Shown here piece by piece: positions 40,522-63,713 of a DNA stretch of 64,000 nt. Position numbers and translations under genes: made by a program. Source of the stretch: Escherichia phage phiLLS; sequence record NC_047822.1; one strand, 5' to 3'. How positions within the stretch are numbered: the stretch's first letter is position 1; the number at the start of each line of letters is the position of its first letter. Below the pieces are notes generated by a model. That model saw only the letters and a list, made by a program, of their open reading frames with translations. It was not told the origin of the DNA and made no database searches.

Positions 40522-41406
40522 ATGTATAACTTTAAAGATAAACTAAGACAAAATGCTGGTAAAACAAAACCTAAAGAGAACAATAATGTTCCTAATGCCA
40601 AAGTATTATCATTTCCAGAACTGTCTCAAGAAGAAAAAGATAAGTTAGCATTTATGTTTGATGCCCTTCTAGAGCTAAATGGACGTTTATATTCCTCACT
40701 CAATATTAATGAGAAACGTTTAGTAGAGATGTTTTGTAAGCGTTATCAAGTTACTTCAAAGGGCAATTCTTATAAAGAAGGTGAGAAAGCATTCACAGTC
40801 TTAAAGATTAGCGCATATGCACATCGTTTCTTAGTTTATGGGTTACAGATGGAATACTTCACCATCCCATCATTTAGCTCTTTCCATATCTTTGAAGATG
40901 AACGAATGAATATTGATGATCTCTATGGGGATACATACAAATACTCAGGAAGTCCATTCCATGATGCATTAAGGAGTTACCCAACTAACTATTTACCAGT
41001 TAGGGCATCACAAGGTAAAGCTAGCATCTTCGCTGTTTACTCAGGATCTAAAGCATCGGATCTAGAAACTTATATATTTAAAGAGCGTAAATCTGTGCTT
41101 CCAGATGAAGCATTGTATAACAATCCATTGCTTCCAGAAAAAGAACCAGAAAAAGTTGATGTAACCCCACCAATCCCATCTGATTCTCAGTATTTAATTT
41201 ATGAGAAACAAGTTAAGTTATCCCTAGAAATTGGGTTAGTTACACCGCTTGCTGCAGCGTTCATAAATAGATACCTAGAAATCCCAGAAGAGTTCCACCA
41301 ACGTTATAGTACGAATGTTCAGATAACGGATGAACTAATTGCGTTAGCAAAAGATACACCTACAGATACTGAGGCGTATCAAAAAGCATACCAAGAGTTA
41401 CTGTAA
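40522..41406 (+). CDS. Hypothetical protein
   Basis: 294-aa ORF with RBS; last + strand CDS before the repeat region. Confidence 0.55.
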   Translation: MYNFKDKLRQNAGKTKPKENNNVPNAKVLSFPELSQEEKDKLAFMFDALLELNGRLYSSLNINEKRLVEMFCKRYQVTSKGNSYKEGEKAFTVLKISAYAHRFLVYGLQMEYFTIPSFSSFHIFEDERMNIDDLYGDTYKYSGSPFHDALRSYPTNYLPVRASQGKASIFAVYSGSKASDLETYIFKERKSVLPDEALYNNPLLPEKEPEKVDVTPPIPSDSQYLIYEKQVKLSLEIGLVTPLAAAFINRYLEIPEEFHQRYSTNVQITDELIALAKDTPTDTEAYQKAYQELL

Positions 41407-41918: not shown

Positions 41919-42519
41919 TGTCGGATTTGCACACTGATATTCTAGAAATTTATGGTAGGATTTGCACAAATGCCTAAGTTTTTAGGAACTCTTACTCTCC
42001 TGAAAATAGCAGCATTATTTCGGGCCGAAGGCCCATGATTGCCTGAGTTTTTAGAGCCACAGAAATTTTCACTTGTCAAGCTATTTTGCCCCATTTTGCT
42101 AATAAAATTTCGCTTTTTCTGCACCTATCTCAAATTAACCCAAGTTATCTCACATCTCCTCCAAAATCCCCGCGGATCAGGTGCTCCGCACCAAACATGC
42201 GCTACATCCTTCTAGCCCCCAAATTTCTCTCACTCTCTCATCTTCTCCTCAAACCCACACAATCACACACCCTCCAATCGAAGTCACAAAAATCTTGTCG
42301 GATTCGCACATCTTAATCCTAGAAAAACCGTGTCGGATTTGCACATACTCCACAGGATTGATGCGCAGCATCGGATTGCTGGAGTTTTTGGAAAAATTCA
42401 TTGTCGGATTTGCACACTATAAAAATTTTTCGGGTCGGATTTGCACACTACCAAAAATTGTCGGATTTGCACATACGTGCCCGCACGTAACACCCGTGGA
42501 GCAATGTCGGATTTGCACA
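41919..42519. repeat. Array of at least 6 direct repeats TGTCGGATTTGCACA with degenerate copies
   Basis: Copies at 41919, 42332, 42402, 42435, 42459, 42505; variants at 41957 and 42296; irregular spacing. Confidence 0.8.
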
Positions 42520-42520
42520 A

Positions 42521-42546
42521 AAGCGCAGGGCAATTGCCCTGCGCTA
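42521..42546. repeat. Perfect palindrome agcgcagggcaattgccctgcgct
   Basis: 11-bp arms around a central AATT. Confidence 0.8.
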
Positions 42547-42770
42547 AATACGAATGATAATAAGAATCATTCTCATTTAAAAAGCGGAATGAGAATGATA
42601 ATAATTCGCATTTAGAAAGTGAAATGAGAATCAATCTCATTTAAGAAAGGGAATGAGAACTATTCAAAAAGTGAAATGATTCTCATTTAGGAAAGGAAAT
42701 GATTATCGGTTAGATAGTGGAATGCGAATGATAATGATTTGCATTTAAGAATGGAAGTGAGAAACACTGT
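42547..42770. repeat. Array of about 8 imperfect AT-rich palindromic units (Fur-box-like)
   Basis: Units contain AATGATAAT / GATAATGAT / ATTCTCATT; spacing 21-40 bp, each ending CATTTAAGAAAG-like. Confidence 0.7.
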
Positions 42771-42845
42771 TATTTAAGTTATCCACAGACTTATCAACAG
42801 CACGATTTGACTTGACAGAATCCTAGCCATTTTGAAGCGTTATTA

Positions 42846-42886
42846 ACAGACTTATCCACAGCTTATCCTACTGTATAAATATACAG
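42846..42886. repeat. Inverted repeat, left arm (41 bp, contains a DnaA-box-like TTATCCACA)
   Basis: 40/41 match to the reverse complement of 45894-45934. Confidence 0.85.
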
Positions 42887-43001
42887 TATTCCTACGTAGT
42901 GAATAATTCTAATATACCGCTAAAACGTCCTGAATCGCATTCTAACGCGTTTAATTTTGGTGGGGATACTAAAACAAGGGGGTATTTAACTGGAGGCATG
43001 G

Positions 43002-43023
43002 AAAAACGGGGAGCTAATCCCCG
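43002..43023 (-). terminator. Rho-independent terminator for the minus-strand cassette
   Basis: Minus-strand hairpin cggggattagctccccg followed by TTTTT. Confidence 0.55.
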
Positions 43024-43139
43024 TCGTTCTCAGAGTAGCGGGCAACCGTTACGCTTTGCCCACTCCCGCCACTCATCTTGATGTCTAGATTTGCGACGGC
43101 GTACTAAAAACCGCTTATACCAGTGATTAAACCATCGTT

Positions 43140-43343
43140 TCATAAACCATCCTCCGGTAATTGATGCGTGATCTTTTCCTCTTCCCCATAGGAATCGACC
43201 AAATGCTGATAATAACCATCGTGATCATAAATCACTTTATCATACTCGCCACGCTCGACCGCTTGCCGGTTTTCTGGCGTATCGGGCACGTAAAAAACGT
43301 CAACCATTGTACTGATTTTGGTTACAACAATTTTATTGCTCAT
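43140..43343 (-). CDS. Hypothetical acidic protein
   Basis: 67-aa minus-strand ORF inside the inverted-repeat-bounded segment. Confidence 0.45.
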   Translation of the reverse strand: MSNKIVVTKISTMVDVFYVPDTPENRQAVERGEYDKVIYDHDGYYQHLVDSYGEEEKITHQLPEDGL

Positions 43344-43361
43344 AATAACCCCCGTTATTAA

Positions 43362-43520
43362 TTATTTGCGTAAATATACGCTTGCCAATAGTCCAGCTAG
43401 AAAGCCCGCCGATACACCAAATGAAGCCACACCGGGAACACTAGCACCATGAGCATATAAAGCCCAGCAAATTACATAAGGCAACAACGGAAACATGCCA
43501 GCTATTAAAAACTTTTTCAT
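43362..43520 (-). CDS. Hypothetical small membrane protein (52 aa)
   Basis: Hydrophobic ORF whose ATG overlaps the upstream stop; below ORF-track cutoff. Confidence 0.35.
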   Translation of the reverse strand: MKKFLIAGMFPLLPYVICWALYAHGASVPGVASFGVSAGFLAGLLASVYLRK

Positions 43521-43861
43521 TGCGCCACCTTTCGAAACGCTGTTTCAATACTATCCGCAGTGGATTGAATATACGCGCCTTTCATTACTAGGCGCTCGGT
43601 GCATATCTTGCGGAAAATATTAATAAAATCATCTTCATTTTCTGCAATTAACGCTTCACCCATAACCTGAACGTCACAAGATGCAAAGGTCAAAAATTGA
43701 AACGCTAGTTCACGGGCAACGACCGCATTAATCTTATAATGCGCTTTGCCCTCATAAATATTAATAACGCCCTTATAAGCTGGTGAAAGCTGGTTTAAAT
43801 AGTTTGCTAACAATGCCGGGCGGCAATTAGCAACAAAGCGGTTGCCTTCATAAATAACCAT
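43517..43861 (-). CDS. Hypothetical protein
   Basis: ORF-track 43517-43900; internal ATG at 43861 avoids overlap with the upstream gene. Confidence 0.45.
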   Translation of the reverse strand: MVIYEGNRFVANCRPALLANYLNQLSPAYKGVINIYEGKAHYKINAVVARELAFQFLTFASCDVQVMGEALIAENEDDFINIFRKICTERLVMKGAYIQSTADSIETAFRKVAQ

Positions 43862-43862
43862 T

Positions 43863-44075
43863 TTATAACACCCCACGAAACGCAGCGTAAAAGGTGGCAA
43901 AGTGTTTAACCGTTTCAGCGATCACGTTGCCGCGCTTGTCAAATTTCTTTTCTGTAACACGAAAGGCATTCTTATTACGTGCTACATATTCGATTTTACA
44001 ATCTTCACGCTCGAACGTGTTAACATCCACCAGCTTAAAGCCTTTCGAACGAGCAAGAGAAACGTTGCGGATCAT
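43863..44075 (-). CDS. Hypothetical small basic protein
   Basis: 70-aa minus-strand ORF. Confidence 0.45.
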   Translation of the reverse strand: MIRNVSLARSKGFKLVDVNTFEREDCKIEYVARNKNAFRVTEKKFDKRGNVIAETVKHFATFYAAFRGVL

Positions 44076-44273
44076 TTTTATTCTCCTTTACTAGTCATGC
44101 AGCCCAGCAGATAAGAAAAAACGGCGATACCCGCGCCGACAATAACGGCGTGAACGTCGAAAGCTATAGCAAAAAGTGATAAAATAGCACCCAAGATACC
44201 TGCTAGAATTGACCGAAAAATAACCATTTTCATTCCCCTAGTTAATGGGGCGAAAGTAACGCCCCGTTATTAA

Positions 44274-44504
44274 TTACATTAAAACAATTTTTGCAGCTTG
44301 TTTTTTAGTACAGTGTTCCGCTTTCAGGGTATCCAGCAAAAAGCCCGCTGTTTGCTGATCAATCTTATCAGCGTTGTATAGTTCTTGGATGGTGTTATAG
44401 GTTTTAGCAATGCCGAACTCCTGCACCATTTCATGAATAACAACACGATTAGATACCCAACCTTGCGCGGTGAACAGATGACTAGCAGAAGAATAAGCAA
44501 CCAT
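44274..44504 (-). CDS. Hypothetical protein
   Basis: Internal ATG of ORF-track 44274-44561 preceded by a strong GGAGG RBS. Confidence 0.5.
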   Translation of the reverse strand: MVAYSSASHLFTAQGWVSNRVVIHEMVQEFGIAKTYNTIQELYNADKIDQQTAGFLLDTLKAEHCTKKQAAKIVLM

Positions 44505-44621
44505 TTTAAACCTCCAAATTTTTGGGAAAATTTTCAATCCACCGTTTTGGTGTAAAAGCATTATAACAAAAAAGGCCGCCTATTATGGCGACCTTTACAA
44601 AACTTTACACTAAATTAATTA

Positions 44622-45626
44622 TTACTCGCTTTCGGTGCTAGTGGTAAAAGTAGAAATATCAATACCTTTCACCATTTCATCGATCATTTCAGCGATGTTA
44701 AAACTTTGCACCATTTCTAACATTGCCGCTTCCATAGCGGCCCCTGCTACCGCTTTCGCTTTCTGGTTGCTTGGGGCATACTGGTCAACCGCTACGCTCA
44801 GCAGGTTGGCAATTACTACTCGACCGATAGGCGTATCAATATAACCTTTAATCATGAACGGTGCTTTTTTAGCCGCTACTTTCGTAATTTGAGTAAGTGC
44901 AATTTTACCCGCTTCCAGTTTTGCAGCGTTTACAACAGCGGATTTATTAGCGGCAACAATGTTAGCAATCTTGGTCATAGTATTTTTTCCTTTGTTTTCA
45001 GTGATTTGAGTATTAACGCTTTGAGTGTTAGAATTTACAACATGGTTTTCTGTATTGTCAACTGGTTTTAGCGTAAATCCAGCATTTGCAACATTTGATT
45101 CATTCCCATATTCTAAATAATCGCTAGGGATCAACATGTTGCCACTAGCGCGTTCAAAACATAACACGCCAGTTGTAGAAATTACATCACTATCAGCACT
45201 TTTGTAATTAGCTGATAGTTCACGCCAAATGCTAGTTAATAACGATCCGACACTATCAGTCCTGATATTACTTACTTTTGTTGCTGTTACTTGCTCTTTT
45301 TCTTGCACGTTATATAATCGCGCAATGTAGCCACTATTAGATTCACTATAACCAACAATGATAAAATCAATATCACTCCCACGTTGATTGCGGAAAATGT
45401 GATAATCACGGTTGAAAATTACTAGCGCCCTTTTCTGGTCTAGTAATTGTGTGAAATCTTCAACTGAATAATGAGTATCATTACTGTCTAAAATTTCATC
45501 ATGAATCTTTTCAACCATGCTAGCGGTATGTTGTACACTTGCCGCGCTACTACCATCTAGCAGGTTGCGCAAACTACCCTTTACAATAGTTGCGTTTGCT
45601 GGTACTGCAATTCTAGTAAAAGACAT
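44622..45626 (-). CDS. Hypothetical protein (334 aa)
   Basis: Long minus-strand ORF with GAGGGAG RBS; first gene of the cassette; no motif recognised. Confidence 0.6.
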   Translation of the reverse strand: MSFTRIAVPANATIVKGSLRNLLDGSSAASVQHTASMVEKIHDEILDSNDTHYSVEDFTQLLDQKRALVIFNRDYHIFRNQRGSDIDFIIVGYSESNSGYIARLYNVQEKEQVTATKVSNIRTDSVGSLLTSIWRELSANYKSADSDVISTTGVLCFERASGNMLIPSDYLEYGNESNVANAGFTLKPVDNTENHVVNSNTQSVNTQITENKGKNTMTKIANIVAANKSAVVNAAKLEAGKIALTQITKVAAKKAPFMIKGYIDTPIGRVVIANLLSVAVDQYAPSNQKAKAVAGAAMEAAMLEMVQSFNIAEMIDEMVKGIDISTFTTSTESE

Positions 45627-45893
45627 TTTCTTGTCTCCCTCGTTAATCGGTGAGTAAATGATAAAGGTATTTTCTTTCTAGGGGCAAATATTATTTTACC
45701 TTTTTATTTTCCTTGCCTAGCGCCTAGTTTTATGCTAACCGCGCAGCGGTACAGTAAAGAGCAAAACACGGTGAAGCCGCTAGGGCGGCGCATTGAGGCT
45801 TTACTTTAATATTACCCCCACTGCATTTAGCTCGTTAGAAAGCGATTTAGGCCGCTTAAAATTGATTGCAGTTGTTAACACTACCTTTCTACC

Positions 45894-45934
45894 CTGTATA
45901 TTTATACAGTAGGATAATCTGTGGATAAGTCTGT
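45894..45934. repeat. Inverted repeat, right arm (41 bp)
   Basis: Reverse complement of 42846-42886 with one mismatch; contains CTGTGGATAAG. Confidence 0.85.
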
Positions 45935-46440
45935 GTAAAAGTCCTTATATCGCCGCCTATCGTGTCAAATCATTTTGTGCTGTGGATAACGTTGGGGATA
46001 ACTTAAATGATAGTGGTTCTCACTCAGGCCGATAGTTTCTTATAGTTATTATTTCTATCGGTTACGATTTCTTATAGTTATTATTTCTCATTAATTTATA
46101 AGTATATTATATATTATGGAATAGTTAGTTGGCTAATGAGATTTTCCGTGATTAATAGTCTGCTAATAGTTTAAGCCGTTACAATCCACCAGCATGATTA
46201 TCGTTCTAGCAATTATTAGTCTGCTATCTTTCCGATGCATACTAACAAATAAAAGTCAATTAATTTATTTCATAAAATAAGTAGTTATCCACTGGAAAAT
46301 AAAAGTCAAGTGGATAACTAGGAAAATTTCATTTTTGCTTCTGGGGATAAGTTATCAACAAGGCTAGAATGCGCCTAAAACGCCCTACAACGCAGTAAAG
46401 TTTTTAGCCATCCCATCATAAGGGGATAAGCCGTTTATCG
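45920..46440. promoter_or_regulatory. Cluster of DnaA-box-like 9-mers (TTATCCACA family)
   Basis: GTGGATAAG 45922, TGTGGATAA 45981, GGGGATAAC 45995, TTATCCACT 46285, GTGGATAAC 46310, GGGGATAAG 46343 and 46432, TTATCAACA 46352. Confidence 0.5.
46036..46088. repeat. Tandem direct repeat, 2 x 21 bp (TTTCTTATAGTTATTATTTCT)
   Basis: Identical copies at 46036-46056 and 46068-46088. Confidence 0.8.
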
Positions 46441-46764
46441 CTGCCACGAGCTTTTTAGATTTTGTCAAGTAGGGCAAGGCAAATATAAATGAAAAAATTA
46501 CTTGCTTATCTGCTGGGTTTTATGGTATTCGCGCGCCCGTTTCTTTTAATTTTAGGCCGTCGCCGGACGCGGTGCGAGTATTTGCCTTCTTTACATTTCT
46601 TTACAAAAATAAGGTTGCGCCTTTTTCGTTGTTTGTTATTATTTATCTCGTAGGGCGGCAATGACGAACTACACGGCGGGAAGTTTACCGCCGCGCTCTT
46701 TAAAAATTGGGTATATCTTAAAGTCTATCGGCGGTAAACTTATCAATTATAAGGAATCGACGAT

Positions 46765-46968
46765 ATGAAACAAACTTTACTAATCACTGGTAAACCTAGC
46801 AAGGCACTGGACAGCAAAACAAAAAATTTGTTGACAGTAGCGCAAAGATCGGTAAAATATCGATTTAAGCAGTACAAGAAAGGCCGCCAGCAAGGTCTGG
46901 AAATGATCTGGCGAAATATTATGATTGACCTGAAAGAAAATCATAAAAAACTGCAAAAAATAGTTTGA
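46765..46968 (+). CDS. Hypothetical small basic protein
   Basis: 67-aa ORF with AAGGAA RBS; first + strand gene after the repeat region. Confidence 0.45.
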   Translation: MKQTLLITGKPSKALDSKTKNLLTVAQRSVKYRFKQYKKGRQQGLEMIWRNIMIDLKENHKKLQKIV

Positions 46969-47196
46969 CTTCCTAGCCGATAGGCTTTAAGATGTACCCA
47001 GTTCGATGAGAGTGATAACTTGATACAATTTGACGGCCGGTACTTGCCATAATGTGCCCCGCCCCCTAACTGGGATATAGCGGCCTGAGTGGAGTTCTTT
47101 AATTTGATTATAATGGCGAGTGGATTTTTTCTTATTATCTGCTACTTTCTAGCAGATAATGCGGAACAATCCACTGAATAAACTGGAGTTTATACC

Positions 47197-47448
47197 ATGA
47201 AAAACGTTATTACCGCGCCGAAAGTTGGTCAATCCGTTTTTATTCCTTTCGTTACTAAAACGGACGAATTAACCGGAAAAGCCGAACGTATTAAAGGTGC
47301 GGCGCTTATGCCGTTCGATACAATCGACGCGGTATACGCTGAAAATGAACGCAGCAACAACGGAAAGCCCGTTTTTAGCGTTCGCGTTAAATCCGGCGAC
47401 GTTGTAAAGGTTGTTCAACGCAACGAAAAATGGGAAGCTGTGTTGTAA
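47197..47448 (+). CDS. Hypothetical protein
   Basis: 83-aa ORF; 10-bp perfect hairpin downstream. Confidence 0.5.
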   Translation: MKNVITAPKVGQSVFIPFVTKTDELTGKAERIKGAALMPFDTIDAVYAENERSNNGKPVFSVRVKSGDVVKVVQRNEKWEAVL

Positions 47449-47546
47449 TTTAGTGTTAACTTTATATTCCCCTGAAATATGGGGAATATAACGATTAACA
47501 TTATGTTAATCTTATCCCTTAAATTAAATCAACAGGAGTTACAATC

Positions 47547-47954
47547 ATGACTAACGTTAAAACCGCAAAATTCGCATGGAATGAAGAAAACACTCAGAAA
47601 GCTGTTTCCATGTACCAGCAGTTAATCAATGAAAACGGTTTAGATTTCGCAAATAGCGACGGCCTGAAAGAGATTGCAAAAGCAGTAGGCGCGGCTTCTC
47701 CCGTATCCGTTCGCTCAAAATTGACCAGCGCGAAAGCGTATCAGAAAAGCGATAAGCCGCGCAAAGTTGGCGGCGGCAGTTCAATCCGCAAAGCTCACTA
47801 TGTACGCGTTATTGCAAAACATGCCATTGATTCCGGCATTATCAAAGACGCTGACGATCTGGCATCACTGGAAAGCGCAAAACTGGAAACGCTGGACGCA
47901 GTAGCACAACTGTTAGGCGTTGCCGATGAAGTAAAACAAGCCGCAGGCGAATAA
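47547..47954 (+). CDS. Pre-early A2-like protein (putative)
   Basis: 135 aa with AGGAG RBS, immediately upstream of the A1-like gene; assignment from synteny and size only. Confidence 0.4.
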   Translation: MTNVKTAKFAWNEENTQKAVSMYQQLINENGLDFANSDGLKEIAKAVGAASPVSVRSKLTSAKAYQKSDKPRKVGGGSSIRKAHYVRVIAKHAIDSGIIKDADDLASLESAKLETLDAVAQLLGVADEVKQAAGE

Positions 47955-48012
47955 ATTTAATTAGTGGGGAATACTCCCCACTATAATTTCCCTTAAATCA
48001 GGAGTTATTAAA

Positions 48013-48210
48013 ATGATCTTTTACCCTACTGAATCGTTAATTCTAGGCTTGTTTATTATGGCGGCCTCATTACTATTCGCTTATTTTCAAAATGATCTGG
48101 ATTCGTATTATTTTAAGCGCAAAGCTAATCTAGCAAAGCGTTTGGGCTTATTTTGCTTTATTGCCGCCGTTGTTTGTGGTGTTAGTTCTAGCCTGATGCC
48201 GATTAGTTAA
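48013..48210 (+). CDS. Hypothetical small membrane protein
   Basis: 65-aa ORF, two hydrophobic segments, AGGAG RBS. Confidence 0.45.
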   Translation: MIFYPTESLILGLFIMAASLLFAYFQNDLDSYYFKRKANLAKRLGLFCFIAAVVCGVSSSLMPIS

Positions 48211-48306
48211 ATGTTGCAAATTATAACGCCTATTATTCAAGGCGTTATATCTGGCAATATTGCCAATAACAAACGTTTTTAATCCCTTTAATGGAGTTTT
48301 ATTATC

Positions 48307-49977
48307 ATGGTTATTTCCGCAGAAAAACAAACCCAGATCCTCAATCTTGCCGCTGATTTCAATTTCTATGGTAAACGTCTGCGCGCTACTAAACTGGAAG
48401 TTTGTGACGATATATCAAAAGCGGTTTACGATACTGCAAAACATTCCACCGCGATTTGTGACTGGTTGGAAGCAAATAAACCAGCGAAACCAAAAGCGGC
48501 GAAAGTAGCAAAAGCCATTAAAAACGATGACCGCCCTGAAGCCGCCGGAGTTATTTCTAGCACGGTGGAGCAATGGGAAGTAAAGCAGGGCAACCGCTTC
48601 ATTATCACATCAATCCAGAACAACACGTTCCCGCATAAAAACTTTTTAGCCTCGCTCGAGCAATATGCCCAGTTTATTGGCGCTGATTTGCTTGTTAGCA
48701 AGTTTATTTATAACAAAAACGGTTTTCAAAATGGGGAAGGCGCGGACGGAATAAAATACGATTCCGCGTTTGACAAATATATCTGCAATAAGAACGTATT
48801 TTTAAACAATCGCCGTTTTGCTTTCATGGCTGAGATTAATGTTTTGCCCACCGCAGATTATCCGCTATCTGGATTCGCTGAAACTGCAACGGCTTTAAAT
48901 ATTGAGGGTCTGGCAATTGGGGCGGCTAAAATCACCGCCGAAAGCGTGCCAGCTTTAAAAGGTGAAGTAGTGCGCCGCATGTATTCAACGGGAACGGCAA
49001 CGCTAAAAAACTATATTCAGCAAAAAGCAGGGCAAAAAGCGGAGGCGCTACATAACTTTGGGGCGCTGATTGTTGAGTTCGACGAAGACGGTGAATTTTT
49101 TGTTCGCCAGCTTGAAACGATGGATGAAAGCGGCGTTTTTTACGATTTGAATATTTGCGCTACTCCCGCCGGATGCTATGAAACATCGGGGCATGTTTTA
49201 GGCTTGCAATATGGTGACGTCCACGCTGAAAAACTAGATGAAGAGTGCGCCGCAGCGTCATGGGGACACGGTGACACCTACGGGCTTGTGGATATTCTCA
49301 AGCCAAAATATCAATTCGTCCATGACGTGCATGATTTTACATCACGCAACCATCACAACCGCGCCTCTGGTGTATTCCTAGCAAAACAATACGCCGCCGG
49401 ACGTGATAAGGTTCTGGATGATCTTATCGATACGGGGCGCGTACTGGAAGCAATGGAGCGCGATTTCTCGCAAACAATCATTGTTGAATCTAACCATGAT
49501 CTGGCGTTATCTCGTTGGCTTGATGATCGTAATGCTAACATTAAAGACGACCCAGCAAACGCGGAACTATATCACCGCCTTAATGCTGCAATTTACGGAG
49601 CTATTGCAGAAAAAGACGACACTTTCAACGTGCTAGATTATGCGCTGCGCAAGGTTGCAGGCTGCGAGTTTAACGCTATTTTCCTAACGACTGACCAATC
49701 ATTTAAAATTGCAGGCATCGAGTGCGGCGTACACGGTCACAATGGCATAAACGGCAGTCGTGGCAATCCGAAACAGTTCAAGAAATTGGGCAAATTAAAC
49801 ACGGGGCACACTCATACCGCCAGCATTTACGGCGGCGTATATACCGCTGGCGTGTCTGGTAGTCTGGACATGGGCTATAATGTTGGCGCGTCAAGCTGGA
49901 CGCAAACGCATGTTATTACCTATGCAAACGGTCAGCGCACTTTGATTGACTTTAAAAACGGTAAATTTTTCGCGTAA
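48307..49977 (+). CDS. Pre-early A1-like protein, metallophosphatase-fold nuclease
   Basis: 556 aa; metallophosphatase motifs GDVH, HDVHD, ESNHD. Confidence 0.6.
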   Translation: MVISAEKQTQILNLAADFNFYGKRLRATKLEVCDDISKAVYDTAKHSTAICDWLEANKPAKPKAAKVAKAIKNDDRPEAAGVISSTVEQWEVKQGNRFIITSIQNNTFPHKNFLASLEQYAQFIGADLLVSKFIYNKNGFQNGEGADGIKYDSAFDKYICNKNVFLNNRRFAFMAEINVLPTADYPLSGFAETATALNIEGLAIGAAKITAESVPALKGEVVRRMYSTGTATLKNYIQQKAGQKAEALHNFGALIVEFDEDGEFFVRQLETMDESGVFYDLNICATPAGCYETSGHVLGLQYGDVHAEKLDEECAAASWGHGDTYGLVDILKPKYQFVHDVHDFTSRNHHNRASGVFLAKQYAAGRDKVLDDLIDTGRVLEAMERDFSQTIIVESNHDLALSRWLDDRNANIKDDPANAELYHRLNAAIYGAIAEKDDTFNVLDYALRKVAGCEFNAIFLTTDQSFKIAGIECGVHGHNGINGSRGNPKQFKKLGKLNTGHTHTASIYGGVYTAGVSGSLDMGYNVGASSWTQTHVITYANGQRTLIDFKNGKFFA

Positions 49978-50050
49978 ATAAATCAGGTTGGCGGCTTGAA
50001 ATATGGCCGCCATTATAAAAGTTTATTAAATTAATTGGAGTTTTATAAAT

Positions 50051-50443
50051 ATGAAAAAGCAAAATATCCCATTCGATCGCGCTCAGTCTTCTATTGTTCT
50101 AGTTTATTCTAGTGGTGAGCGCTATCACGTCGAGGCGGGGCACGTTGTTGATGATTTAATCGAGTTTAACGAGGCGCTACAGATCACTACTTTCGCCTAT
50201 ACCACGGGCAAACTATCAAGCCGCATCAAGGCGAAAGGCGTTTATATTGACACGATGAAGCAGGAAACGATTATCATTGACGCGGTGAAGTCCGGTCTAG
50301 CCTTTGCAGTTGTCGCGCCTTGTCCCGCTTGTCTTGATGATCAGTTAATGAGCGCGAAGGTATTCACATGCGCGGGCATTCGTTCCAGCGTATCAGGTGA
50401 GGATATTAGTTTTATCGCTGATGCGCTTGCGTTTGGCCTTTAA
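50051..50443 (+). CDS. Hypothetical protein
   Basis: 130-aa ORF with GGAG RBS. Confidence 0.5.
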   Translation: MKKQNIPFDRAQSSIVLVYSSGERYHVEAGHVVDDLIEFNEALQITTFAYTTGKLSSRIKAKGVYIDTMKQETIIIDAVKSGLAFAVVAPCPACLDDQLMSAKVFTCAGIRSSVSGEDISFIADALAFGL

Positions 50444-50517
50444 TAGCTGGACTAGTCCAGCCCATCCAGCGGGCTGGATTAATTTAATTTAATCCCTTAA
50501 ACGGAGAACGTAACAAA

Positions 50518-51237
50518 ATGAAGATTACCCGTAATTTCCCGCATGTTTCCCGCGTCATGATTTGGGATCTGGATGGCACTATCGTTAACTCATTCCATCG
50601 CGTAGCGCCTTGCTTTGATAGTGAGGGCAATCTAGATCTAAATAAGTATAAAAATGAAGCGTGTAAACATGCTTTGATAATGCAAGATACACTGTTACCG
50701 CTTGTTACCTATATGCGCCAGTGCATGAATGACGCCAACACGTTAAACATTATTTGTACCGCTCGACTAATGAGCAAATCAGATTACTATTACCTACGGA
50801 AGCAAGGGCTGCGAGGGCGTGGGGGTAGCAATATCCGCGTATTTTCCCGCGATACACTGCACAAATATTTTGAAGCTGATAAGGTTAGCGAAATATACCA
50901 CAGCAAAGACGCTATATATAAAAGCCACTATTTTGAGTTATTTAAGCAATTATATCCGAACGCTGATTTCACGATGATTGATGATCATAAAGGCGTGCTA
51001 TCAGCGGCGGCATCATACGGATTTAAAACGCTGGACGCGCAAGCCGTTAACGATATTCTATCGATTGGGGTTACATTGATAGGTGAAACCTTTATCGATG
51101 AATCTCTTGAGGATGATAATGATTATCAGTTCCTGGCCGACCGCCTGCAATTATGTTGGGAAGGTATGACCGAAGAAGAACGCGCAGAATATAGTTGCAG
51201 CCCGCAACAATATATTGAGAAATTAAAAGTTGCGTAA
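50518..51237 (+). CDS. HAD-superfamily 5'-deoxyribonucleotidase-like protein (dmp-like)
   Basis: HAD motif I (IWDLDGTIV) near the N-terminus; 239 aa. Confidence 0.5.
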   Translation: MKITRNFPHVSRVMIWDLDGTIVNSFHRVAPCFDSEGNLDLNKYKNEACKHALIMQDTLLPLVTYMRQCMNDANTLNIICTARLMSKSDYYYLRKQGLRGRGGSNIRVFSRDTLHKYFEADKVSEIYHSKDAIYKSHYFELFKQLYPNADFTMIDDHKGVLSAAASYGFKTLDAQAVNDILSIGVTLIGETFIDESLEDDNDYQFLADRLQLCWEGMTEEERAEYSCSPQQYIEKLKVA

Positions 51238-51401
51238 TAATTAAAGTTGAAATTGTTTCACCTTGCAATTAAAATGGTTGCAGGGTGAAACAGTTAGCAT
51301 GGTAATAGTAACGGGGGTGGCGGTTAGCAGACTAAGTATTTTCGCCGGAGGCAGTGAGCACATCCTCATGTGTAATCTTATGAAATTTCGAGATTTCCAA
51401 A

Positions 51402-51647
51402 TTAGCGCATAGAAGGGTCACCAAACCGATGTTCAGGTCTGAACTCACGGAATCTCTTCCGCGACGCCCGAGAACCATCCGACCATTCTCGTTCAAACTC
51501 CGCACGTTTCTCGTCAAACTTCCGCTCCCTTTCCGCAATCTCCCGCGTCACTCCCGCAATATATTTACGATGCTTGTTGATTGCCGCAGTTGTCCCGAAA
51601 ACCCCCGCGAGTATCCCGATAATAAAAGCAATTACAATACTAAACAT
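51402..51647 (-). CDS. Hypothetical membrane protein
   Basis: 81-aa minus-strand ORF with N-terminal TM helix. Confidence 0.4.
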   Translation of the reverse strand: MFSIVIAFIIGILAGVFGTTAAINKHRKYIAGVTREIAERERKFDEKRAEFEREWSDGSRASRKRFREFRPEHRFGDPSMR

Positions 51648-51831
51648 CTAATTCCCTCTCAATTTGCAGAATACGGGTACTATCACAACGTTGCAGTAGT
51701 GCTAGCTTTTCTAGAGTAACTTGTTGTTTTACCTGAGCTTCTAGAGTTTTTAGGCGGAGATACACGATACGAGAGACAATGAGGATTACCCAGACTAATA
51801 TTACCATTAGTGTAATTGCCACTTCCATCAT
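51640..51831 (-). CDS. Hypothetical membrane protein
   Basis: 63-aa minus-strand ORF with N-terminal TM helix. Confidence 0.4.
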   Translation of the reverse strand: MMEVAITLMVILVWVILIVSRIVYLRLKTLEAQVKQQVTLEKLALLQRCDSTRILQIERELDV

Positions 51832-52239
51832 TTACGTTTCTCCGATAGTAAGGTTTCGATTCTAGCTAAGTGATTATCTAAGATACATTGCCCAATAATC
51901 ACAACCCCCAGTAGTGCAATAATTACCCATTCCATTAAATCCACCCCGCCATAGCTGCTAACCAAAAACCTACGAAGATTAGGAATAATACAAAACCAAA
52001 TCCGTAAATATTAATCCACGCTTCGTACACTTCTCCGCGTCTGTTCTTTCTTTTATTTGACATATCTTTCGTACTCCCGTAAATGTGATTTTTGAAATAT
52101 TCTATAATTTGTGCACAACCAACCGTGCCTGTGGACCCCTAGAAGGGCTTCTACTTTTCTTATATAGTGTTTTCTGCCAGTATACCGTCCAAGAAATAAA
52201 AAATTTAGTTTACTTGGATGTCTTTTTGCTTTATACTAA

Positions 52240-52506
52240 TTACAAGTAATTAGATTGCTCTAGTTTAAATTTACAATCACCGTATTTAAGGTCAAACTGA
52301 CTGAGATCCCACCACCCAAACTTAGTACGGAGCTGTACTACTGGAAAGCGATCTCCCTTAATACGAACTTTTTGAACCTTGAGGCCGTAATGTTCCTCTC
52401 CCGCACCACCAAAAGATTTTACAAATCCCGTACAAAATGGTTTGGGGGCAGGTGCACAACCAGATAACATAACTGCGGCAACTAGTGCAATCACAAACTT
52501 TTTCAT
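52240..52506 (-). CDS. Lipoprotein, putative receptor-blocking lytic-conversion protein (Llp-like)
   Basis: Signal peptide with lipobox (LSGC); divergent from the adjacent receptor-binding protein gene. Confidence 0.55.
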   Translation of the reverse strand: MKKFVIALVAAVMLSGCAPAPKPFCTGFVKSFGGAGEEHYGLKVQKVRIKGDRFPVVQLRTKFGWWDLSQFDLKYGDCKFKLEQSNYL

Positions 52507-52591
52507 ATTTATCTCTCCATTTCTAATTTATGAATCTATTATAGCAAAATAGAGAGATGAAAGCAAATACATTTTTATAATAGGAGATTAT

Positions 52592-54349
52592 ATGGGTTTT
52601 TTCGCTGGAAAATATAGCGATGGTAAGACCGTACTATCTTTAAATACTGAATCTGGTGGTGACATTAATCGTCACTATAGTCCAAATAATAATAGTATTT
52701 TTCATAGTGATATGCCATTTGTCCTAGTTGATGGTACTTATGAGGCAGGATTAGGAGATGCCGGGAATGGGTTTTTTGTCTGTCAGATGCCCTCTGACAT
52801 AATAAATATTAAATCCAACGACCCGGGTAGAGTTATACTAACTGCTATTGAGATTAATGGTACTCATAGGGCTTTTCTTAATGGTACTCAAAGTAAGGTT
52901 GGCCAAACTATAGTTGCTACTCAAGCAGATCCCTTTAGATCTTTTGCTAGTGTTTCTCAAACCAGTGGATTTGCATTTGGTAATAGTCTAGCATCTGGCA
53001 CTTATAATTATAATCCCTCTCTAGGGCATGAAGAATCTATCTCTAGAAATGGTACTGGAGGTACTACGTTACATAGTACCTATCACGGTATAGTTAGGCC
53101 CGGTGCGGGAGCTCCTGTAGGTATTACTGTTGCACAAGCTTTTGAGCAATTGGGTTTCCCTACTAATAGTAGCACAGTACCTGTAGATGGGAATAACCCG
53201 TACTATTGGGATCCCGGATGGATGTCGCCTCTAGGAGCAGCGCATAGAGGGCATGATTGGTTTTATGTCTGCAATTCTAATATACGTGGATATGGTGGAG
53301 TTAGACAAGGGCTCCCAGGTAATGTAAATACTATGTACCACGACGGTGGGAACAGGTTTGTTTGTAGGGGATCTACTACTAATCTAGCTAACCAGTCGGG
53401 TGACTCTACAATACTACAGGATTGGTATAATATAACTCCTACTAAGGTTATTTGGTATGTTCTTAATTTAAGGTACTCGAATGGTGGAATGAGTATTTCA
53501 GGTAATCCCTTTACTGGTTCTGATATTCTTATATCTCCTTCTAATTTCATAATTAAAGGGGTAAGTCTCCCTAATACCGGGTATAAATTTATTAATCAGA
53601 ATGCTTTTGGTAACTTAGGTTATCGTCCTGATATGGAGTATATAGGGAATAACGCAGCGTATACTGGAGCCTTCGGAGATACCACTGCAAGGTGTGAACT
53701 TGTAGGATCTAGTAATGGAGGGTTGTGGTCTCCTGTAGATTATGGAGGGGCTAAATCCCAAATTAGCATTTACAAATTTGGAGCAGGTAAACAGTGGTAT
53801 GTAAACTCTAACGATAATACTATTGGTAATGAGCATGGGGTTGTTTGGGGACCCTCAGCAGTTCCACTGCGACTTTTTGGTGGAAATGTAGGTAGTTCCT
53901 ATATGGGAGATGATATTACTCCCCACTATCCAGGAACGGGTGATAGATACGTTGGTTTATCAACTATTGGGCTAGGTATACCAGGCGGAAATGCTACAGT
54001 AATTCTTACTACTGAAGTTATATCAGGTAATCTTAATTGTGCGGGTGTTCCAGCTAATACATGGAATAATGGTGTGTTTCAAGTGCAAGGAAGAAGAGCG
54101 TATAGCTATAGCGGCGGGGATGCAATATTCCACCAGATTTTAACGCTACCTGTGGGCTATCTAGTACCTTTTCATACTACATCTGCTTTTAGATACACGC
54201 CTAACAATGCTCTTAGTAGAAACAGTTTTATATATACCGTTAAAAATCTAGGAAATGGAAATGTAGAGTTAGGAGTAGTTATGCATGTGAGTTTGGGTAG
54301 CGCAGTTTTCCTACCTAGATTAAGAGTAACAGTTCAACGCCTTACCTAA
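52592..54349 (+). CDS. Putative receptor-binding tail protein (pb5/Oad-like position)
   Basis: 585 aa, Gly/Asn/Ser/Thr-rich; strong AGGAGA RBS; divergent from the lipoprotein gene. Confidence 0.5.
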
Positions 54350-54359
54350 AGGAGGAAAT

Positions 54360-54842
54360 ATGGCAAATGATGTATTAGTACCAGATCTTATGTCCCCTGA
54401 AGGGATGGATGTAATTGAAGCTTATTTACAGTGCGGCAGCGATGTGCCTTCTGCCGCACGTAGTCTTGGAATGTCCGAAATTGCTTTCCGAGATATTATG
54501 AATCGTAGTGAAGTTAAGAACTACTTAAATGATATTTTTATGGAGAGTGGTTTCCGTAATAGGGATCGTTTATTTGGTGTTCTGGATGAAGTTATTAAGC
54601 GTAAGCTGGAGGAACTAGAAGAAACGGGCATGGGTTCTGACCAGGATATTATGGATATTCTCTGGAAAGCACACAAAATGAAGATGGAAGAAATGAAAAT
54701 GATGGTGGAGTTAGAAAAAGCTAAAGCTGCCGTTCGAGCTCCTGCTAATCAGACTAATATCCAGAATAACATTATTGCTGGAGCTGGGGATCAAAACTAC
54801 ATGGATTTAATTACTTCCCTAGCTACTGGAGGTAAGAAGTAA
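54360..54842 (+). CDS. Terminase small subunit (putative)
   Basis: 160 aa immediately upstream of and coupled to the large terminase; HTH-like N-terminus. Confidence 0.5.
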
Positions 54843-56158
54843 TGGAAGTATCAAGACCCTATGTTAATACAGTAGATGTTATTGATTTCGGAATAGATAA
54901 GCGTTTCTTTCGTCTACCTGTTTCAGGAATACTAGCGCAAGAAGGTATTACACCTAATGGTCCTCAAATAGCAATTATCAATGCCCTAGAAGACCCTAGA
55001 CATCGTTTTGTAACGGCGTGTGTATCACGCCGTGTAGGTAAATCTTTTATAGCATATACACTTGGGTTCCTAAAATTGCTGGAACCTAATGTGAAGGTGC
55101 TAGTAGTTGCCCCTAACTACTCACTGGCCAATATCGGATGGTCTCAGATTCGTGGTCTTATTAAGAAGTACGGTCTACAAACCGAACGTGAAAACGCTAA
55201 AGATAAAGAGATTGAGTTAGCTAATGGTTCTCTATTTAAACTAGCTTCCGCGGCTCAGGCTGACTCCGCAGTTGGACGTTCATATGATTTTATCATCTTT
55301 GACGAGGCGGCAATTTCCGATGTGGGTGGTGATGCCTTTAGGGTTCAGCTGCGCCCTACTCTAGATAAACCTAATTCTAAGGCTCTATTTATTTCCACCC
55401 CTCGTGGAGGTAACTGGTTTAAAGAGTTTTATGCCTACGGATTTGATGATACGTTGCCTAACTGGGTATCTATTCATGGTACATACCGTGATAACCCTCG
55501 TGCTGACCTGAATGACATTGAGGAAGCACGTCGTACGGTTAGTAAAAACTACTTCCGCCAAGAATACGAGGCTGACTTCTCTGTATTCGAAGGACAGATA
55601 TTTGATACTTTCAATGCTATCGATCATGTTAAAGACCTCAAAGGTATGCGCCACTTCTTTAAAGATGATGAAGCATTCGAAACGTTGCTGGGTATTGACG
55701 TTGGTTATCGTGATCCTACAGCAGTTCTCACTATTAAATATCATTACGATACGGATACTTACTATGTATTAGAAGAGTACCAGCAGGCGGAGAAAACTAC
55801 AGCTCAGCATGCTGCTTATATTCAGCATTGTATAGATCGTTATAATGTTGATCGTATTTTTGTTGACTCTGCAGCAGCTCAGTTCCGCCAGGACTTAGCT
55901 TATGAGCATGAAATTGCCTCAGCTCCAGCCAAAAAATCTGTCCTAGATGGCCTAGCATGTCTGCAAGCACTGTTCCAACAGGGCAAGATTATTGTAGATG
56001 CCTCATGTTCCTCCTTAATTCATGCATTGCAGAATTATAAGTGGGACTTCCAAGAAGGTGAAGAGAAATTATCACGTGAAAAACCACGTCATGATGCTAA
56101 CTCTCACCTTTGTGATGCGCTGCGCTATGGAATTTACTCTATTTCCCGTGGTAAATAA
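54842..56158 (+). CDS. Terminase large subunit
   Basis: Walker A SRRVGKSF and Walker B DFIIFDEAA, then nuclease-like C-terminus. Confidence 0.8.
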   Translation: MEVSRPYVNTVDVIDFGIDKRFFRLPVSGILAQEGITPNGPQIAIINALEDPRHRFVTACVSRRVGKSFIAYTLGFLKLLEPNVKVLVVAPNYSLANIGWSQIRGLIKKYGLQTERENAKDKEIELANGSLFKLASAAQADSAVGRSYDFIIFDEAAISDVGGDAFRVQLRPTLDKPNSKALFISTPRGGNWFKEFYAYGFDDTLPNWVSIHGTYRDNPRADLNDIEEARRTVSKNYFRQEYEADFSVFEGQIFDTFNAIDHVKDLKGMRHFFKDDEAFETLLGIDVGYRDPTAVLTIKYHYDTDTYYVLEEYQQAEKTTAQHAAYIQHCIDRYNVDRIFVDSAAAQFRQDLAYEHEIASAPAKKSVLDGLACLQALFQQGKIIVDASCSSLIHALQNYKWDFQEGEEKLSREKPRHDANSHLCDALRYGIYSISRGK

Positions 56159-56272
56159 ATAAATATAGGATGGGATACTACTCAGTTGGTATCCCATTCC
56201 TGTATTTTAAAATCCCCTTTACAAATTCGATACGATTATGTATACTATATTCATACAGTTGAGGAGAACACT

Positions 56273-56710
56273 ATGGCAAGCAATATAAAATATAAACGCG
56301 ATGCTATATCCCTTATGAGAGACGGAATAAAAAGTCAATATAAAAAAGACTCTCAATGTGCTATCTGCGGTTGTGCTGAAGAATTAGAGCTTCATCATTA
56401 CCATACGGTGTCTCTACTAGTTAAAAAATTTGCTAAAGAACTCCAATTGGATTTCACTGACGAAGAAACAGTCCTTTCAAATAGGACGGCATTCTATGAT
56501 CGATATAGGCATGAGCTAGTAGAAGACACTGTTACCCTCTGTGTACACCATCACCAATTATTACATAAGGTTTACACAAAAGAACCTCCTTTATTTTCTG
56601 CTAATAAGCAAAAAGTGTGGGTTCAAAAGCAGAAAGACAAATTACAGAATCCTCAAGAAAAGACACAAGTCAAGACTGAAACAAAATCAGGATTCGCAAG
56701 GTTCTTATAA
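56273..56710 (+). CDS. HNH endonuclease (packaging-associated)
   Basis: Cys/His zinc motifs CAICGC...HHYH...CVHHHQLLH; ATG at 56273 with GAGGAG RBS. Confidence 0.55.
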   Translation: MASNIKYKRDAISLMRDGIKSQYKKDSQCAICGCAEELELHHYHTVSLLVKKFAKELQLDFTDEETVLSNRTAFYDRYRHELVEDTVTLCVHHHQLLHKVYTKEPPLFSANKQKVWVQKQKDKLQNPQEKTQVKTETKSGFARFL

Positions 56711-57927
56711 TGGGTTTTAAAAGCTGGATTACTGAAAAGCTAAATCCGGGTCAACGTATTATAAGAGACATGGAACCAGTTAGTCATCGCACTAACCGTA
56801 AGCCTTTTACCACTGGACAAGCCTACAGTAAAATTGAGATTCTCAATAGAACTGCTAATATGGTTATAGATAGTGCGGCGGAGTGTTCTTATACTGTCGG
56901 AGATAAATATAATATTGTTACGTACGCTAATGGCGTCAAAACAAAGACTCTAGACACTCTCTTAAATGTACGACCTAATCCATTCATGGATATAAGCACA
57001 TTCCGTAGACTTGTAGTCACTGACCTACTTTTTGAAGGTTGTGCATACATCTATTGGGATGGCACATCGCTTTACCACGTCCCGGCTGCTCTTATGCAGG
57101 TCGAGGCAGATGCCAATAAGTTTATCAAAAAATTTATATTTAATAATCAGATAGACTATCGCGTAGATGAGATTATCTTTATAAAGGATAACAGTTACGT
57201 GTGTGGCACAAATTCTCAAATTTCTGGACAATCTCGTGTTGCTACTGTTATTGATTCTCTTGAGAAGCGTTCTAAGATGCTTAACTTTAAAGAGAAATTC
57301 CTCGATAACGGAACCGTGATTGGTCTTATTCTTGAAACGGATGAAATCCTGAACAAGAAATTGCGTGAGCGTAAACAAGAAGAATTACAACTCGATTATA
57401 ATCCTAGTACTGGTCAGTCTTCTGTCCTGATTCTAGATGGTGGTATGAAAGCTAAACCGTACTCCCAAATATCCTCTTTTAAAGATCTAGACTTTAAGGA
57501 AGACATCGAAGGATTTAATAAATCTATTTGTCTAGCCTTTGGAGTTCCGCAAGTACTGCTTGATGGTGGTAATAATGCGAATATTCGACCAAACATCGAA
57601 TTGTTTTATTATATGACTATCATTCCTATGCTGAACAAACTGACTAGTTCTCTTACTTTCTTTTTTGGTTATAAGATTACTCCTAATACTAAGGAGGTAG
57701 CTGCATTAACACCAGATAAAGAAGCTGAGGCTAAACATTTAACCTCATTGGTTAATAATGGTATTATGACTGGTAACGAAGCTCGTTTAGAGCTGAACCT
57801 TGAACCTTTAGATGATGAGCAGATGGATAGGATTCGTATTCCTGCTAACGTTGCTGGTTCTGCAACAGGTGTATCTGGTCAAGAAGGTGGTAGACCTCAA
57901 GGTTCCACCGAGGGAGATAAAGAATGA
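56710..57927 (+). CDS. Portal protein
   Basis: 405 aa between terminase and prohead protease. Confidence 0.6.
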   Translation: MGFKSWITEKLNPGQRIIRDMEPVSHRTNRKPFTTGQAYSKIEILNRTANMVIDSAAECSYTVGDKYNIVTYANGVKTKTLDTLLNVRPNPFMDISTFRRLVVTDLLFEGCAYIYWDGTSLYHVPAALMQVEADANKFIKKFIFNNQIDYRVDEIIFIKDNSYVCGTNSQISGQSRVATVIDSLEKRSKMLNFKEKFLDNGTVIGLILETDEILNKKLRERKQEELQLDYNPSTGQSSVLILDGGMKAKPYSQISSFKDLDFKEDIEGFNKSICLAFGVPQVLLDGGNNANIRPNIELFYYMTIIPMLNKLTSSLTFFFGYKITPNTKEVAALTPDKEAEAKHLTSLVNNGIMTGNEARLELNLEPLDDEQMDRIRIPANVAGSATGVSGQEGGRPQGSTEGDKE

Positions 57928-58418: not shown

Positions 58419-58421
58419 TAA

Positions 58422-59054: not shown

Positions 59055-59071
59055 CGGAGAATTATTTAAAA

Positions 59072-60448: not shown

Positions 60449-60467
60449 TACAGGCTTTTCAGCCGAT

Positions 60468-60494
60468 AAGGAGAGCTTCGGCTCTCCTTTTTTA
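60468..60494 (+). terminator. Rho-independent terminator after the major capsid gene
   Basis: Hairpin aaggagagcttcggctctcctt followed by TTTTTT. Confidence 0.75.
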
Positions 60495-60507
60495 TTGGGA
60501 AAAATAA

Positions 60508-61787: not shown

Positions 61788-61790
61788 TAA

Positions 61791-62276: not shown

Positions 62277-62302
62277 GTTACAGATTAGGAGAAAATAATT
62301 AA

Positions 62303-63709: not shown

Positions 63710-63713
63710 ATAA

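What the first reader, a model, noticed from the sequence alone, without database searches (positions are those of the whole stretch)
46765..52240. Pre-early-type module lies between early and late genes, suggesting the window spans a collapsed terminal repeat
An A2-like gene, a 556-aa A1-like metallophosphatase-fold protein and a HAD-family dmp-like nucleotidase are classic pre-early (first-step-transfer) functions in T5-like phages, normally inside the long terminal repeat. Here they sit between the early region and the structural genes, so the window probably crosses the physical genome terminus in a circularised assembly.
Basis: partly seen in the sequence, partly recalled or inferred. Interest (0 to 1): 0.45.

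Follow-up and report, generated by a model that had tools for sequence, protein, structure and literature searches.

The report
T5-type terminal repeat, collapsed in assembly
The window comes from an ordinary T5-like phage whose ~9.3 kb terminal repeat, which carries the first-injected genes A1, A2 and dmp, appears once between the early and late genes because the sequence is written in circularised form, a well-known situation.

Summary
Window 47547-47954, 48307-49977 and 50518-51237 encode proteins 99%, 97% and 97% identical to phage T5 A2, A1 and Dmp.

The whole window is collinear, in reverse orientation, with a circularised T5 map:
- Window 1-41838 matches the T5 early region.
- Window 42054-51360 matches the T5 terminal repeat.
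- Window 51292-63956 matches the T5 late region.

The T5 left end aligns to window 51360 and the T5 right end to window 42054. Annotated or record ends of BF23 (mapped with PhageTerm), MM-1, Elw and EASG3 fall at the same aligned positions. The predicted repeat is therefore 42054-51360 (9,307 bp), not 41.4-52.2 kb. The flagged span holds only its outer half plus 0.9 kb of unique late-side DNA.

The repeat also carries the T5 injection-stop architecture. Only one copy is in the window.

Of the 25 best GenBank matches, 24 show the same single-copy arrangement, and Davison (2020) attributes it to assemblers mishandling the large repeats.

Nothing here is new. Read coverage and real ends could not be tested.

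The parts
40522..41406 (+). Homologue of T5.018, the first gene of the unique region next to the left repeat in T5
   Evidence: A 294-aa ORF, the same length as T5.018. T5 10539-13000 aligns to window 41803-39335 at 93%.
41919..42526 (.). Seven copies of TGTCGGATTTGCACA-type direct repeats, two of them outside the repeat boundary. I equate them with Davison's DRD repeats of T5 Repeat Region 3.
   Evidence: Family D2. Davison describes nine DRD copies and a Repeat Region 3 that overruns the repeat by 270 bp.
42054..51360 (-). Predicted single copy of the long direct terminal repeat (9,307 bp), equal to the first-step-transfer DNA. In T5 orientation the genome left end is the reverse complement of 51360 and the genome right end is the reverse complement of 42054.
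   Evidence: blastn against both T5 ends. Boundary alignments with T5, BF23, MM-1, Elw and HASG4. The EASG3 record end falls at query position 1055, which is window 42054 (H23). No second copy in the window.
42522..42545 (+). Perfect 24-nt palindrome AGCGCAGGGCAATTGCCCTGCGCT. The T5 major nick (9748/9749) maps to A|GCGC between 42522 and 42523 on the + strand.
   Evidence: Inverted repeat I6. Alignment to T5 9690-9810. T5 nick annotation and the consensus NPu pGCGCN quoted in notes on other T5 nicks.
42552..42760 (.). Array of 23-35-nt AATGA-rich direct and inverted repeats in the injection-stop region
   Evidence: Families D1, D3 and D6 and pairs I1-I4. Tandem Repeats Finder arrays.
42756..42901 (.). 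Arm of the 146-nt inverted repeat that corresponds to T5 IRD'-spacer-IRC' (candidate injection stop signal). It holds two pairs of DnaA or DnaA-like boxes, each pair 3 bp apart.
   Evidence: Description in Davison 2020.
43140..43343 (-). Homologue of T5.017
   Evidence: A 67-aa ORF. T5 8933-10436 aligns to window 43363-41838.
43362..43520 (-). A 52-aa hydrophobic ORF in the place of T5.016, which is absent here
   Evidence: ORF list. T5 8645-8933 has no counterpart in the window.
43517..43900 (-). Homologue of T5.015
   Evidence: phrog_4379 at E 7.5e-64. T5 7066-8645 aligns to window 45061-43516.
43863..44075 (-). Homologue of T5.014. Both the T5 RefSeq record and PHROGs label this gene as the Ung-dependent nicking endonuclease.
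   Evidence: phrog_4227 at E 4e-50. T5 annotation.
44078..44561 (-). Homologues of T5.013 (44078-44233) and T5.012 (44274-44561)
   Evidence: ORFs. Covered by the 87% nucleotide alignment to T5 7066-8645. Not compared at protein level.
44622..45626 (-). Homologue of T5.011
   Evidence: A 334-aa ORF with phrog_4263 at E 6e-160. The central part diverges from T5 at nucleotide level.
45627..46660 (.). Non-coding divergent-promoter and repeat region (T5 Repeat Regions 1 and 2, fused here because the hegG homing endonuclease is absent). It contains the second inverted-repeat arm at 45879-46024 with four DnaA or DnaA-like boxes.
   Evidence: Davison notes that most T5-like phages lack the HNH insert.
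46661..46768 (+). Homologue of T5.009 (35 aa)
   Evidence: The translation differs from T5.009 at one residue.
46765..46968 (+). Homologue of T5.008 (DUF7416)
   Evidence: Pfam PF24188 at E 7e-37. phrog_4718.
47197..47448 (+). Homologue of T5.007 (DUF7177)
   Evidence: Pfam PF23801 at E 1e-41.
47547..47954 (+). A2, the DNA-binding protein required for second-step transfer
   Evidence: 134/135 identical to T5 A2.
48013..48210 (+). Homologue of the T5.005 membrane protein
   Evidence: phrog_4820 at E 2e-32.
48307..49977 (+). A1, a metallophosphoesterase-fold protein. In T5 it is essential for second-step transfer and for host DNA degradation.
50051..50443 (+). Homologue of T5.002. T5.003 is absent between it and A1.
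   Evidence: phrog_4576 at E 6e-81. T5 1360-1665 has no counterpart in the window.
50518..51237 (+). dmp, the deoxynucleoside-5'-monophosphatase
   Evidence: 97% identical to T5 Dmp.
51361..52240 (-). Unique late-side DNA, not part of the repeat. It holds four small ORFs, mostly hydrophobic, in the place of T5.159-T5.162 (51402-51647, 51640-51831, 51828-51965, 51935-52063).
52240..52506 (-). Lipoprotein ORF at the position of llp (receptor-blocking lipoprotein), assigned by position only
   Evidence: Lipoprotein signal motif. A sub-threshold Cor-type hit. Same position and 267-bp size as the BF23 and DT57C llp genes.
52592..56158 (+). Receptor-binding tail protein (52592-54349), then ORFs matching the T5 small and large terminase genes (54360-54842, 54842-56158): the start of the late block

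Best explanation
The window comes from a T5-like phage (Tequintavirus-type, family Demerecviridae) and is written in the opposite orientation to the T5 reference. Window 42054-51360 is its long direct terminal repeat.

In the virion this 9.3 kb would be present at both ends of a linear genome. The deposited or assembled sequence holds it once, joined to both unique flanks. That happens when two identical end copies collapse in assembly and the contig is circularised and opened at an arbitrary point. It is also the arrangement at a replicative concatemer junction.

By homology with T5, the repeat works as follows:
1. The end corresponding to window 51360 enters the cell first.
2. Transfer pauses at the repeat-rich injection-stop region (about 42520-42900).
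3. Host RNA polymerase transcribes the pre-early genes divergently from the non-coding centre (45627-46660).
4. A1 (a metallophosphoesterase-fold protein) drives host DNA breakdown. [quoted passage not shown]
5. Dmp converts the released dNMPs to nucleosides.

Shown here: gene identities, synteny, boundary positions relative to mapped relatives, the repeat architecture, and the A1 fold. Inferred: actual duplication at the ends, the two-step transfer, and the protein activities.
For: - A1, A2 and Dmp are 97%, 99% and 97% identical to the T5 proteins.
- Synteny with a circularised T5 map: window 1-41838 matches T5 51750-10436, window 42054-51360 matches the repeat, and window 51292-63956 matches T5 111600-98112.
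- The T5 left end aligns to window 51360 and the T5 right end to 42054. The repeat boundaries annotated in BF23 and MM-1 fall in the same alignment columns at both ends, and Elw does so at the outer end.
- The EASG3 record, which carries both repeats, ends at window 42054 (H23).
- The BF23 repeat was mapped with PhageTerm.
- Sequence within 60 nt of the boundaries is 95-97% identical to T5, against 86-88% across the main repeat alignments.
- The injection-stop architecture is conserved: a 146-nt inverted repeat pair, eight DnaA or DnaA-like boxes, DRD-type repeats, and a palindrome at the site of the T5 nick.
- 24 of the 25 best GenBank matches (records of 56.9-111.8 kb, nearly all 102-112 kb) extend past both boundaries in one place.
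- Davison 2020 states that many GenBank T5-like records place dmp, A1 and A2 in the late region because assemblers mishandle the large repeats.
Against: - No reads, coverage or virion-end data exist for this sequence, so duplication of 42054-51360 and the exact ends rest on homology.
- The window holds only one copy, as expected, so the window alone cannot show that a repeat exists.
- Neither the A1 protein nor the T5.011 homologue is on record in the contig collection, so the source assembly could not be inspected.
Confidence: 0.93

Rival explanations
1. The sequence was read from real replicative DNA (a concatemer or circular intermediate) rather than produced by assembly collapse, so the single repeat copy between late and early genes is a physical junction.
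For: The arrangement at a concatemer junction would be identical to what is seen. Davison 2020 proposes circle formation and rolling-circle replication for T5.
Against: Phage genomes are normally sequenced from virion DNA. Collapse of identical 9-10 kb repeats by short-read assemblers is the stated cause in the literature. Sequence alone cannot separate the two, and the biology of the repeat is the same either way.
Confidence: 0.04
2. This phage has different ends from T5: a shorter or longer repeat, ends elsewhere, or a permuted genome. The pre-early module would then be truly internal.
For: Repeat lengths vary among relatives: 8,717-10,407 bp. No direct end data exist for this sequence.
Against: Both boundary sequences are 95-97% identical to T5 over 120 nt. 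They coincide with ends annotated in four other relatives. Every characterised relative consulted here carries these genes in the repeat.
Confidence: 0.02
3. The join is a chimeric misassembly of unrelated contigs at the repeat.
For: Repeats are common sites of misjoins.
Against: Both flanks are the expected T5 neighbours, in the expected orientation and at the expected distance. The same continuous arrangement is found in 24 of the 25 best GenBank matches.
Confidence: 0.01

Closest known systems
Terminal repeat and first-step-transfer region of Escherichia phage T5 (NC_005859, 1-10219 and 111532-121750)
   Same: - Same genes in the same order and orientation: dmp, 002, A1, 005, A2, 007, 008, 009, then the divergent 011-015 and 017.
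- Same boundary sequences.
- Same injection-stop repeat architecture and nick-site palindrome.
- The three named proteins are 97-99% identical to their T5 counterparts.
   Different: - About 86-88% nucleotide identity across the main alignments.
- 9,307 bp against 10,219 bp, because T5.003, the hegG homing endonuclease and T5.016 are missing. These are the genes Annor et al. report as rarest in the family.
- A 52-aa ORF replaces T5.016.
- The nick-site palindrome is perfect here and imperfect in T5.
- Present once in the window rather than at two ends.
Collapsed, arbitrarily opened GenBank records of T5-like phages (for example phiAPCEc03 KR422353, vB_Eco_mar004NP2 LR027384, Salmonella phage WP85 PV844355)
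   Same: One repeat copy lying inside the record between early and late genes, in records of 103-109 kb. These are the best overall matches, at 89-92% identity over 91-96% of the queries.
   Different: They are different strains. No record in the collection is identical to the window. Only the receptor-binding gene has a near-identical match (99.7%, Citrobacter phage vB_CfrD-Cit2).
Phage BF23 (OR083247), with ends mapped by PhageTerm
   Same: The 9,743-bp repeat has boundaries at the same aligned positions. It has the same 267-bp gene at the llp position.
   Different: That record carries both copies at its ends. Identity is about 90% around the outer boundary.

Membership tests
T5-type long direct terminal repeat carrying the first-step-transfer module (Demerecviridae) | dmp, A1 and A2 in this order at the outer (left) end of the repeat, all transcribed towards the end | tested here: met
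   Davison's criterion is quoted.
T5-type long direct terminal repeat carrying the first-step-transfer module (Demerecviridae) | Large untranslated injection-stop region at the inner end, with IRD'-spacer-IRC', its inverted partner, and about eight DnaA or DnaA-like boxes in pairs 3 bp apart | tested here: met
   A 146-nt inverted pair at 42756-42901 and 45879-46024. Five consensus boxes plus three variants visible in the alignment.
T5-type long direct terminal repeat carrying the first-step-transfer module (Demerecviridae) | Boundaries coincide with mapped genome ends of relatives | tested here: met
   T5, BF23, MM-1, Elw and EASG3.
T5-type long direct terminal repeat carrying the first-step-transfer module (Demerecviridae) | The sequence is physically present at both ends of the virion DNA | not testable with these tools
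   There is one copy in the window. No reads or end data are available.
T5-type long direct terminal repeat carrying the first-step-transfer module (Demerecviridae) | Two-step DNA transfer dependent on A1 and A2 | not testable with these tools
   This needs an experiment. It is known for T5.
Collapsed terminal repeat in a circularised assembly | One repeat copy joined to both the left-unique and the right-unique flank | tested here: met
Collapsed terminal repeat in a circularised assembly | About twofold read depth over the repeat | not testable with these tools
   No reads are available. The method is used for relatives.
A1 (phrog_1745, 'DNA transfer protein') | Full-length similarity to T5 A1 | tested here: met
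   538/556 identical. phrog_1745 at E 4e-243.
Calcineurin-like metallophosphoesterase fold (for A1) | Conserved metal-binding motifs (GDxH, xDxxD, NH, H, HxH) and the two-sheet sandwich fold | tested here: met
A2 (phrog_1725, DNA-binding protein) | Full-length similarity to T5 A2 | tested here: met
   134/135 identical.
Dmp, the T5 deoxynucleoside-5'-monophosphatase | Full-length similarity to T5 Dmp | tested here: met
   230/237 identical.
HAD superfamily (for Dmp) | Significant match to a HAD profile or fold, with the DxDxT nucleophile motif | tested here: inconclusive
   DLDGT is present at residues 17-21. HAD_2 scores E 0.13 and 12.8 bits against a 23.8 cut-off. A HAD-type phosphatase model scores E 0.094. 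The single-sequence model has pLDDT 39 and is unusable. No PDB sequence hit.

The most novel reading that the evidence does not exclude
The least ordinary reading still open is that this phage does not cut its genome at the T5 positions, so the A1/A2/dmp module would not be terminally duplicated or injected first. That would mean a Demerecviridae member with a different packaging or injection programme.
Probability: 0.02. Interest if true: 0.55.

Novelty: already known. Interest (0 to 1): 0.05.

Why it matters
The value is practical. Anyone annotating or re-using this genome should re-open it at window 51360 (reverse strand) and add a second copy of 42054-51360 at the other end. That restores the real ~9.3 kb-longer linear genome, and the pre-early genes should be labelled as terminal-repeat genes. 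The finding opens no new biological question, because the module, its position and the assembly artefact are all documented for T5-like phages.

Tried and rejected
- **Pfam, NCBIfam and PDB sequence searches** gave no significant family for A1, A2 or Dmp. Identity to the T5 proteins and a structure model for A1 were used instead.
- **A single-sequence AlphaFold model of Dmp** failed at pLDDT 39, so the HAD fold was not tested structurally. I chose not to spend a second large homologue search on this side issue.
- **Exact-protein look-ups** for the T5.011 homologue and for A1, meant to find the source contig and its length, found nothing.
- **A literature search** for 'collapsed' together with 'T5-like' found nothing useful. 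The relevant statement was in Davison 2020.
- **Second copy or chimera.** I looked for a second copy of the repeat in the window and found none beyond the internal 146-200-nt inverted repeat.
- **Rfam** finds only the 21 tRNAs of the early region and nothing in the repeat.
- **The simple promoter and terminator scan** was not informative. It gave 45 promoter-like sites against 32.6 expected, and terminator-like sites at chance level.
Full report
**What is there**

Against the T5 reference (NC_005859):
- The 135-aa protein at 47547-47954 is 134/135 identical to A2.
- The 556-aa protein at 48307-49977 is 538/556 identical to A1.
- The 239-aa protein at 50518-51237 is 230/237 identical to Dmp.

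The neighbours are also T5 pre-early genes:
- Homologues of T5.009 (46661-46768), T5.008 (46765-46968, DUF7416), T5.007 (47197-47448, DUF7177), T5.005 (48013-48210) and T5.002 (50051-50443).
- On the other strand, homologues of T5.011 to T5.015 and T5.017 (43140-45626).

T5.003, the hegG homing endonuclease and T5.016 have no counterpart. Annor et al. 2026 report exactly these, together with 009, as the rarest pre-early genes in the family.

**Which phage**

Megablast of three parts of the window finds several hundred T5-like Escherichia and Salmonella phages. Identity is about 89-92% over the repeat and late side, and up to 95-96% over the early region. No record is identical to the window. 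The window also carries 21 tRNA genes at 11.5-24 kb, as T5 does.

**Arrangement**

blastn of T5 against the window gives a simple picture:

| Window | T5 | Region |
|---|---|---|
| 1-41838 | 51750 down to 10436 | early region, reversed |
| 42054-51360 | terminal repeat | repeat |
| 51292-63956 | 111600 down to 98112 | late region, reversed |

The alignment with the T5 left end runs through window 42054 into the early side. The alignment with the T5 right end runs through window 51360 into the late side. So one repeat copy is joined to both unique flanks, which a linear virion genome cannot show. The window has no second copy.

**Boundaries**

- T5 position 1 aligns to window 51360, and the last T5 base (121750, equivalent to left-repeat position 10219) aligns to window 42054.
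- The repeat features annotated in BF23 and MM-1 end in the same alignment columns at both boundaries. Elw does so at the outer one.
- The EASG3 record, which carries both copies, stops at query position 1055, which is window 42054 (H23).
- The BF23 repeat was determined with PhageTerm.
- The 120 nt around each boundary are 95-97% identical to T5, against 86-88% across the main repeat alignments. That fits conserved cutting sites.

The predicted repeat is therefore 42054-51360, 9,307 bp. The flagged span 46765-52240 contains only the outer half of the repeat plus 51361-52240, which is unique late-side DNA encoding four small ORFs.

**Non-coding anatomy**

The inner end of the repeat reproduces the T5 injection-stop region described by Davison:
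- Seven TGTCGGATTTGCACA-type repeats at 41919-42526, two of them beyond the repeat boundary.
- An array of 23-35-nt repeats at 42552-42760.
- A 146-nt inverted repeat pair at 42756-42901 and 45879-46024.

The two inverted-repeat arms hold five of the window's eleven consensus DnaA boxes, plus three one- or two-mismatch variants, arranged in pairs 3 bp apart.

The T5 major nick at 9748/9749 maps to A|GCGC at 42522/42523, inside a perfect 24-nt palindrome at 42522-42545.

**Protein folds**

- **Dmp.** The HAD assignment rests on a DLDGT motif and sub-threshold profile hits only. A single-sequence model failed.

**How it most likely works**

By homology with T5:
1. The end at window 51360 enters first.
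2. Transfer stalls at the injection-stop region.
3. The host polymerase transcribes the two divergent pre-early gene blocks.
4. A1 and A2 permit the second step, and A1 destroys host DNA.
5. Dmp dephosphorylates the released dNMPs.

None of these activities was or could be tested here.

**Why the module sits between early and late genes**

The two identical end copies have been merged into one and the circle opened elsewhere. Of the 25 best GenBank matches, 24 extend past both boundaries in one place. Davison (2020) states that many GenBank T5-like records place dmp, A1 and A2 in the late region because assembly software has difficulty with the large repeats. A concatemer junction would look the same, and sequence alone cannot separate the two.

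**Verdict**

The feature is already known and of low interest. What remains untested is read depth and the physical ends.

Noticed in passing
window 52592-54349: The receptor-binding tail protein gene is 99.7% identical at nucleotide level to that of Citrobacter phage vB_CfrD-Cit2. The next best records are about 95%, and the surrounding genome matches its best relatives at only about 90%. It has no nucleotide similarity to T5 oad (585 aa against 640 aa in T5). This suggests recent exchange of the host-range module.
   Followed up: partly
window 42522-42545: The palindrome at the site of the T5 7.9% nick is perfect here (AGCGCAGGGCAATTGCCCTGCGCT), so both strands carry the A|GCGC nick consensus. 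In T5 one arm is degenerate (GCGAGCAGGG...).
   Followed up: partly
window 43362-43520: A 52-aa hydrophobic ORF occupies the slot where T5 has T5.016. Its origin was not examined.
   Followed up: no
window 45061-45547: The central part of the T5.011 homologue has no megablast or blastn match to T5, although both ends of the gene do. This is a variable middle segment in a pre-early protein that is toxic in T5.
   Followed up: no
window 11561-23953: There are 21 tRNA genes on the + strand (Rfam). This corresponds to the T5 tRNA region, where homing endonuclease genes are inserted in T5.
   Followed up: no
window 41919-41975: Two of the seven TGTCGGATTTGCACA repeats lie outside the predicted repeat boundary (42054), in unique DNA. 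Davison describes the same overrun for T5 Repeat Region 3. The repeat boundary therefore cuts through a repeat array.
   Followed up: partly
L001 (NC_005859) 8086-8298, compared with window 43863-44075: The T5 RefSeq record and PHROGs attach the 'Ung-dependent nicking endonuclease' label to T5.014 (70 aa). Annor et al. 2026 call the nickase gene 015. This looks like a numbering offset between annotations, and it matters when transferring names to this window.
   Followed up: no
L001 (NC_005859) repeat_region 1-10219: The reference record annotates the T5 repeat as 10,219 bp, while Davison 2020 quotes 10,139 bp for another T5 sequence (AY587007). The boundary mapping here used the NC_005859 record ends, which do not depend on that figure.
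   Followed up: no
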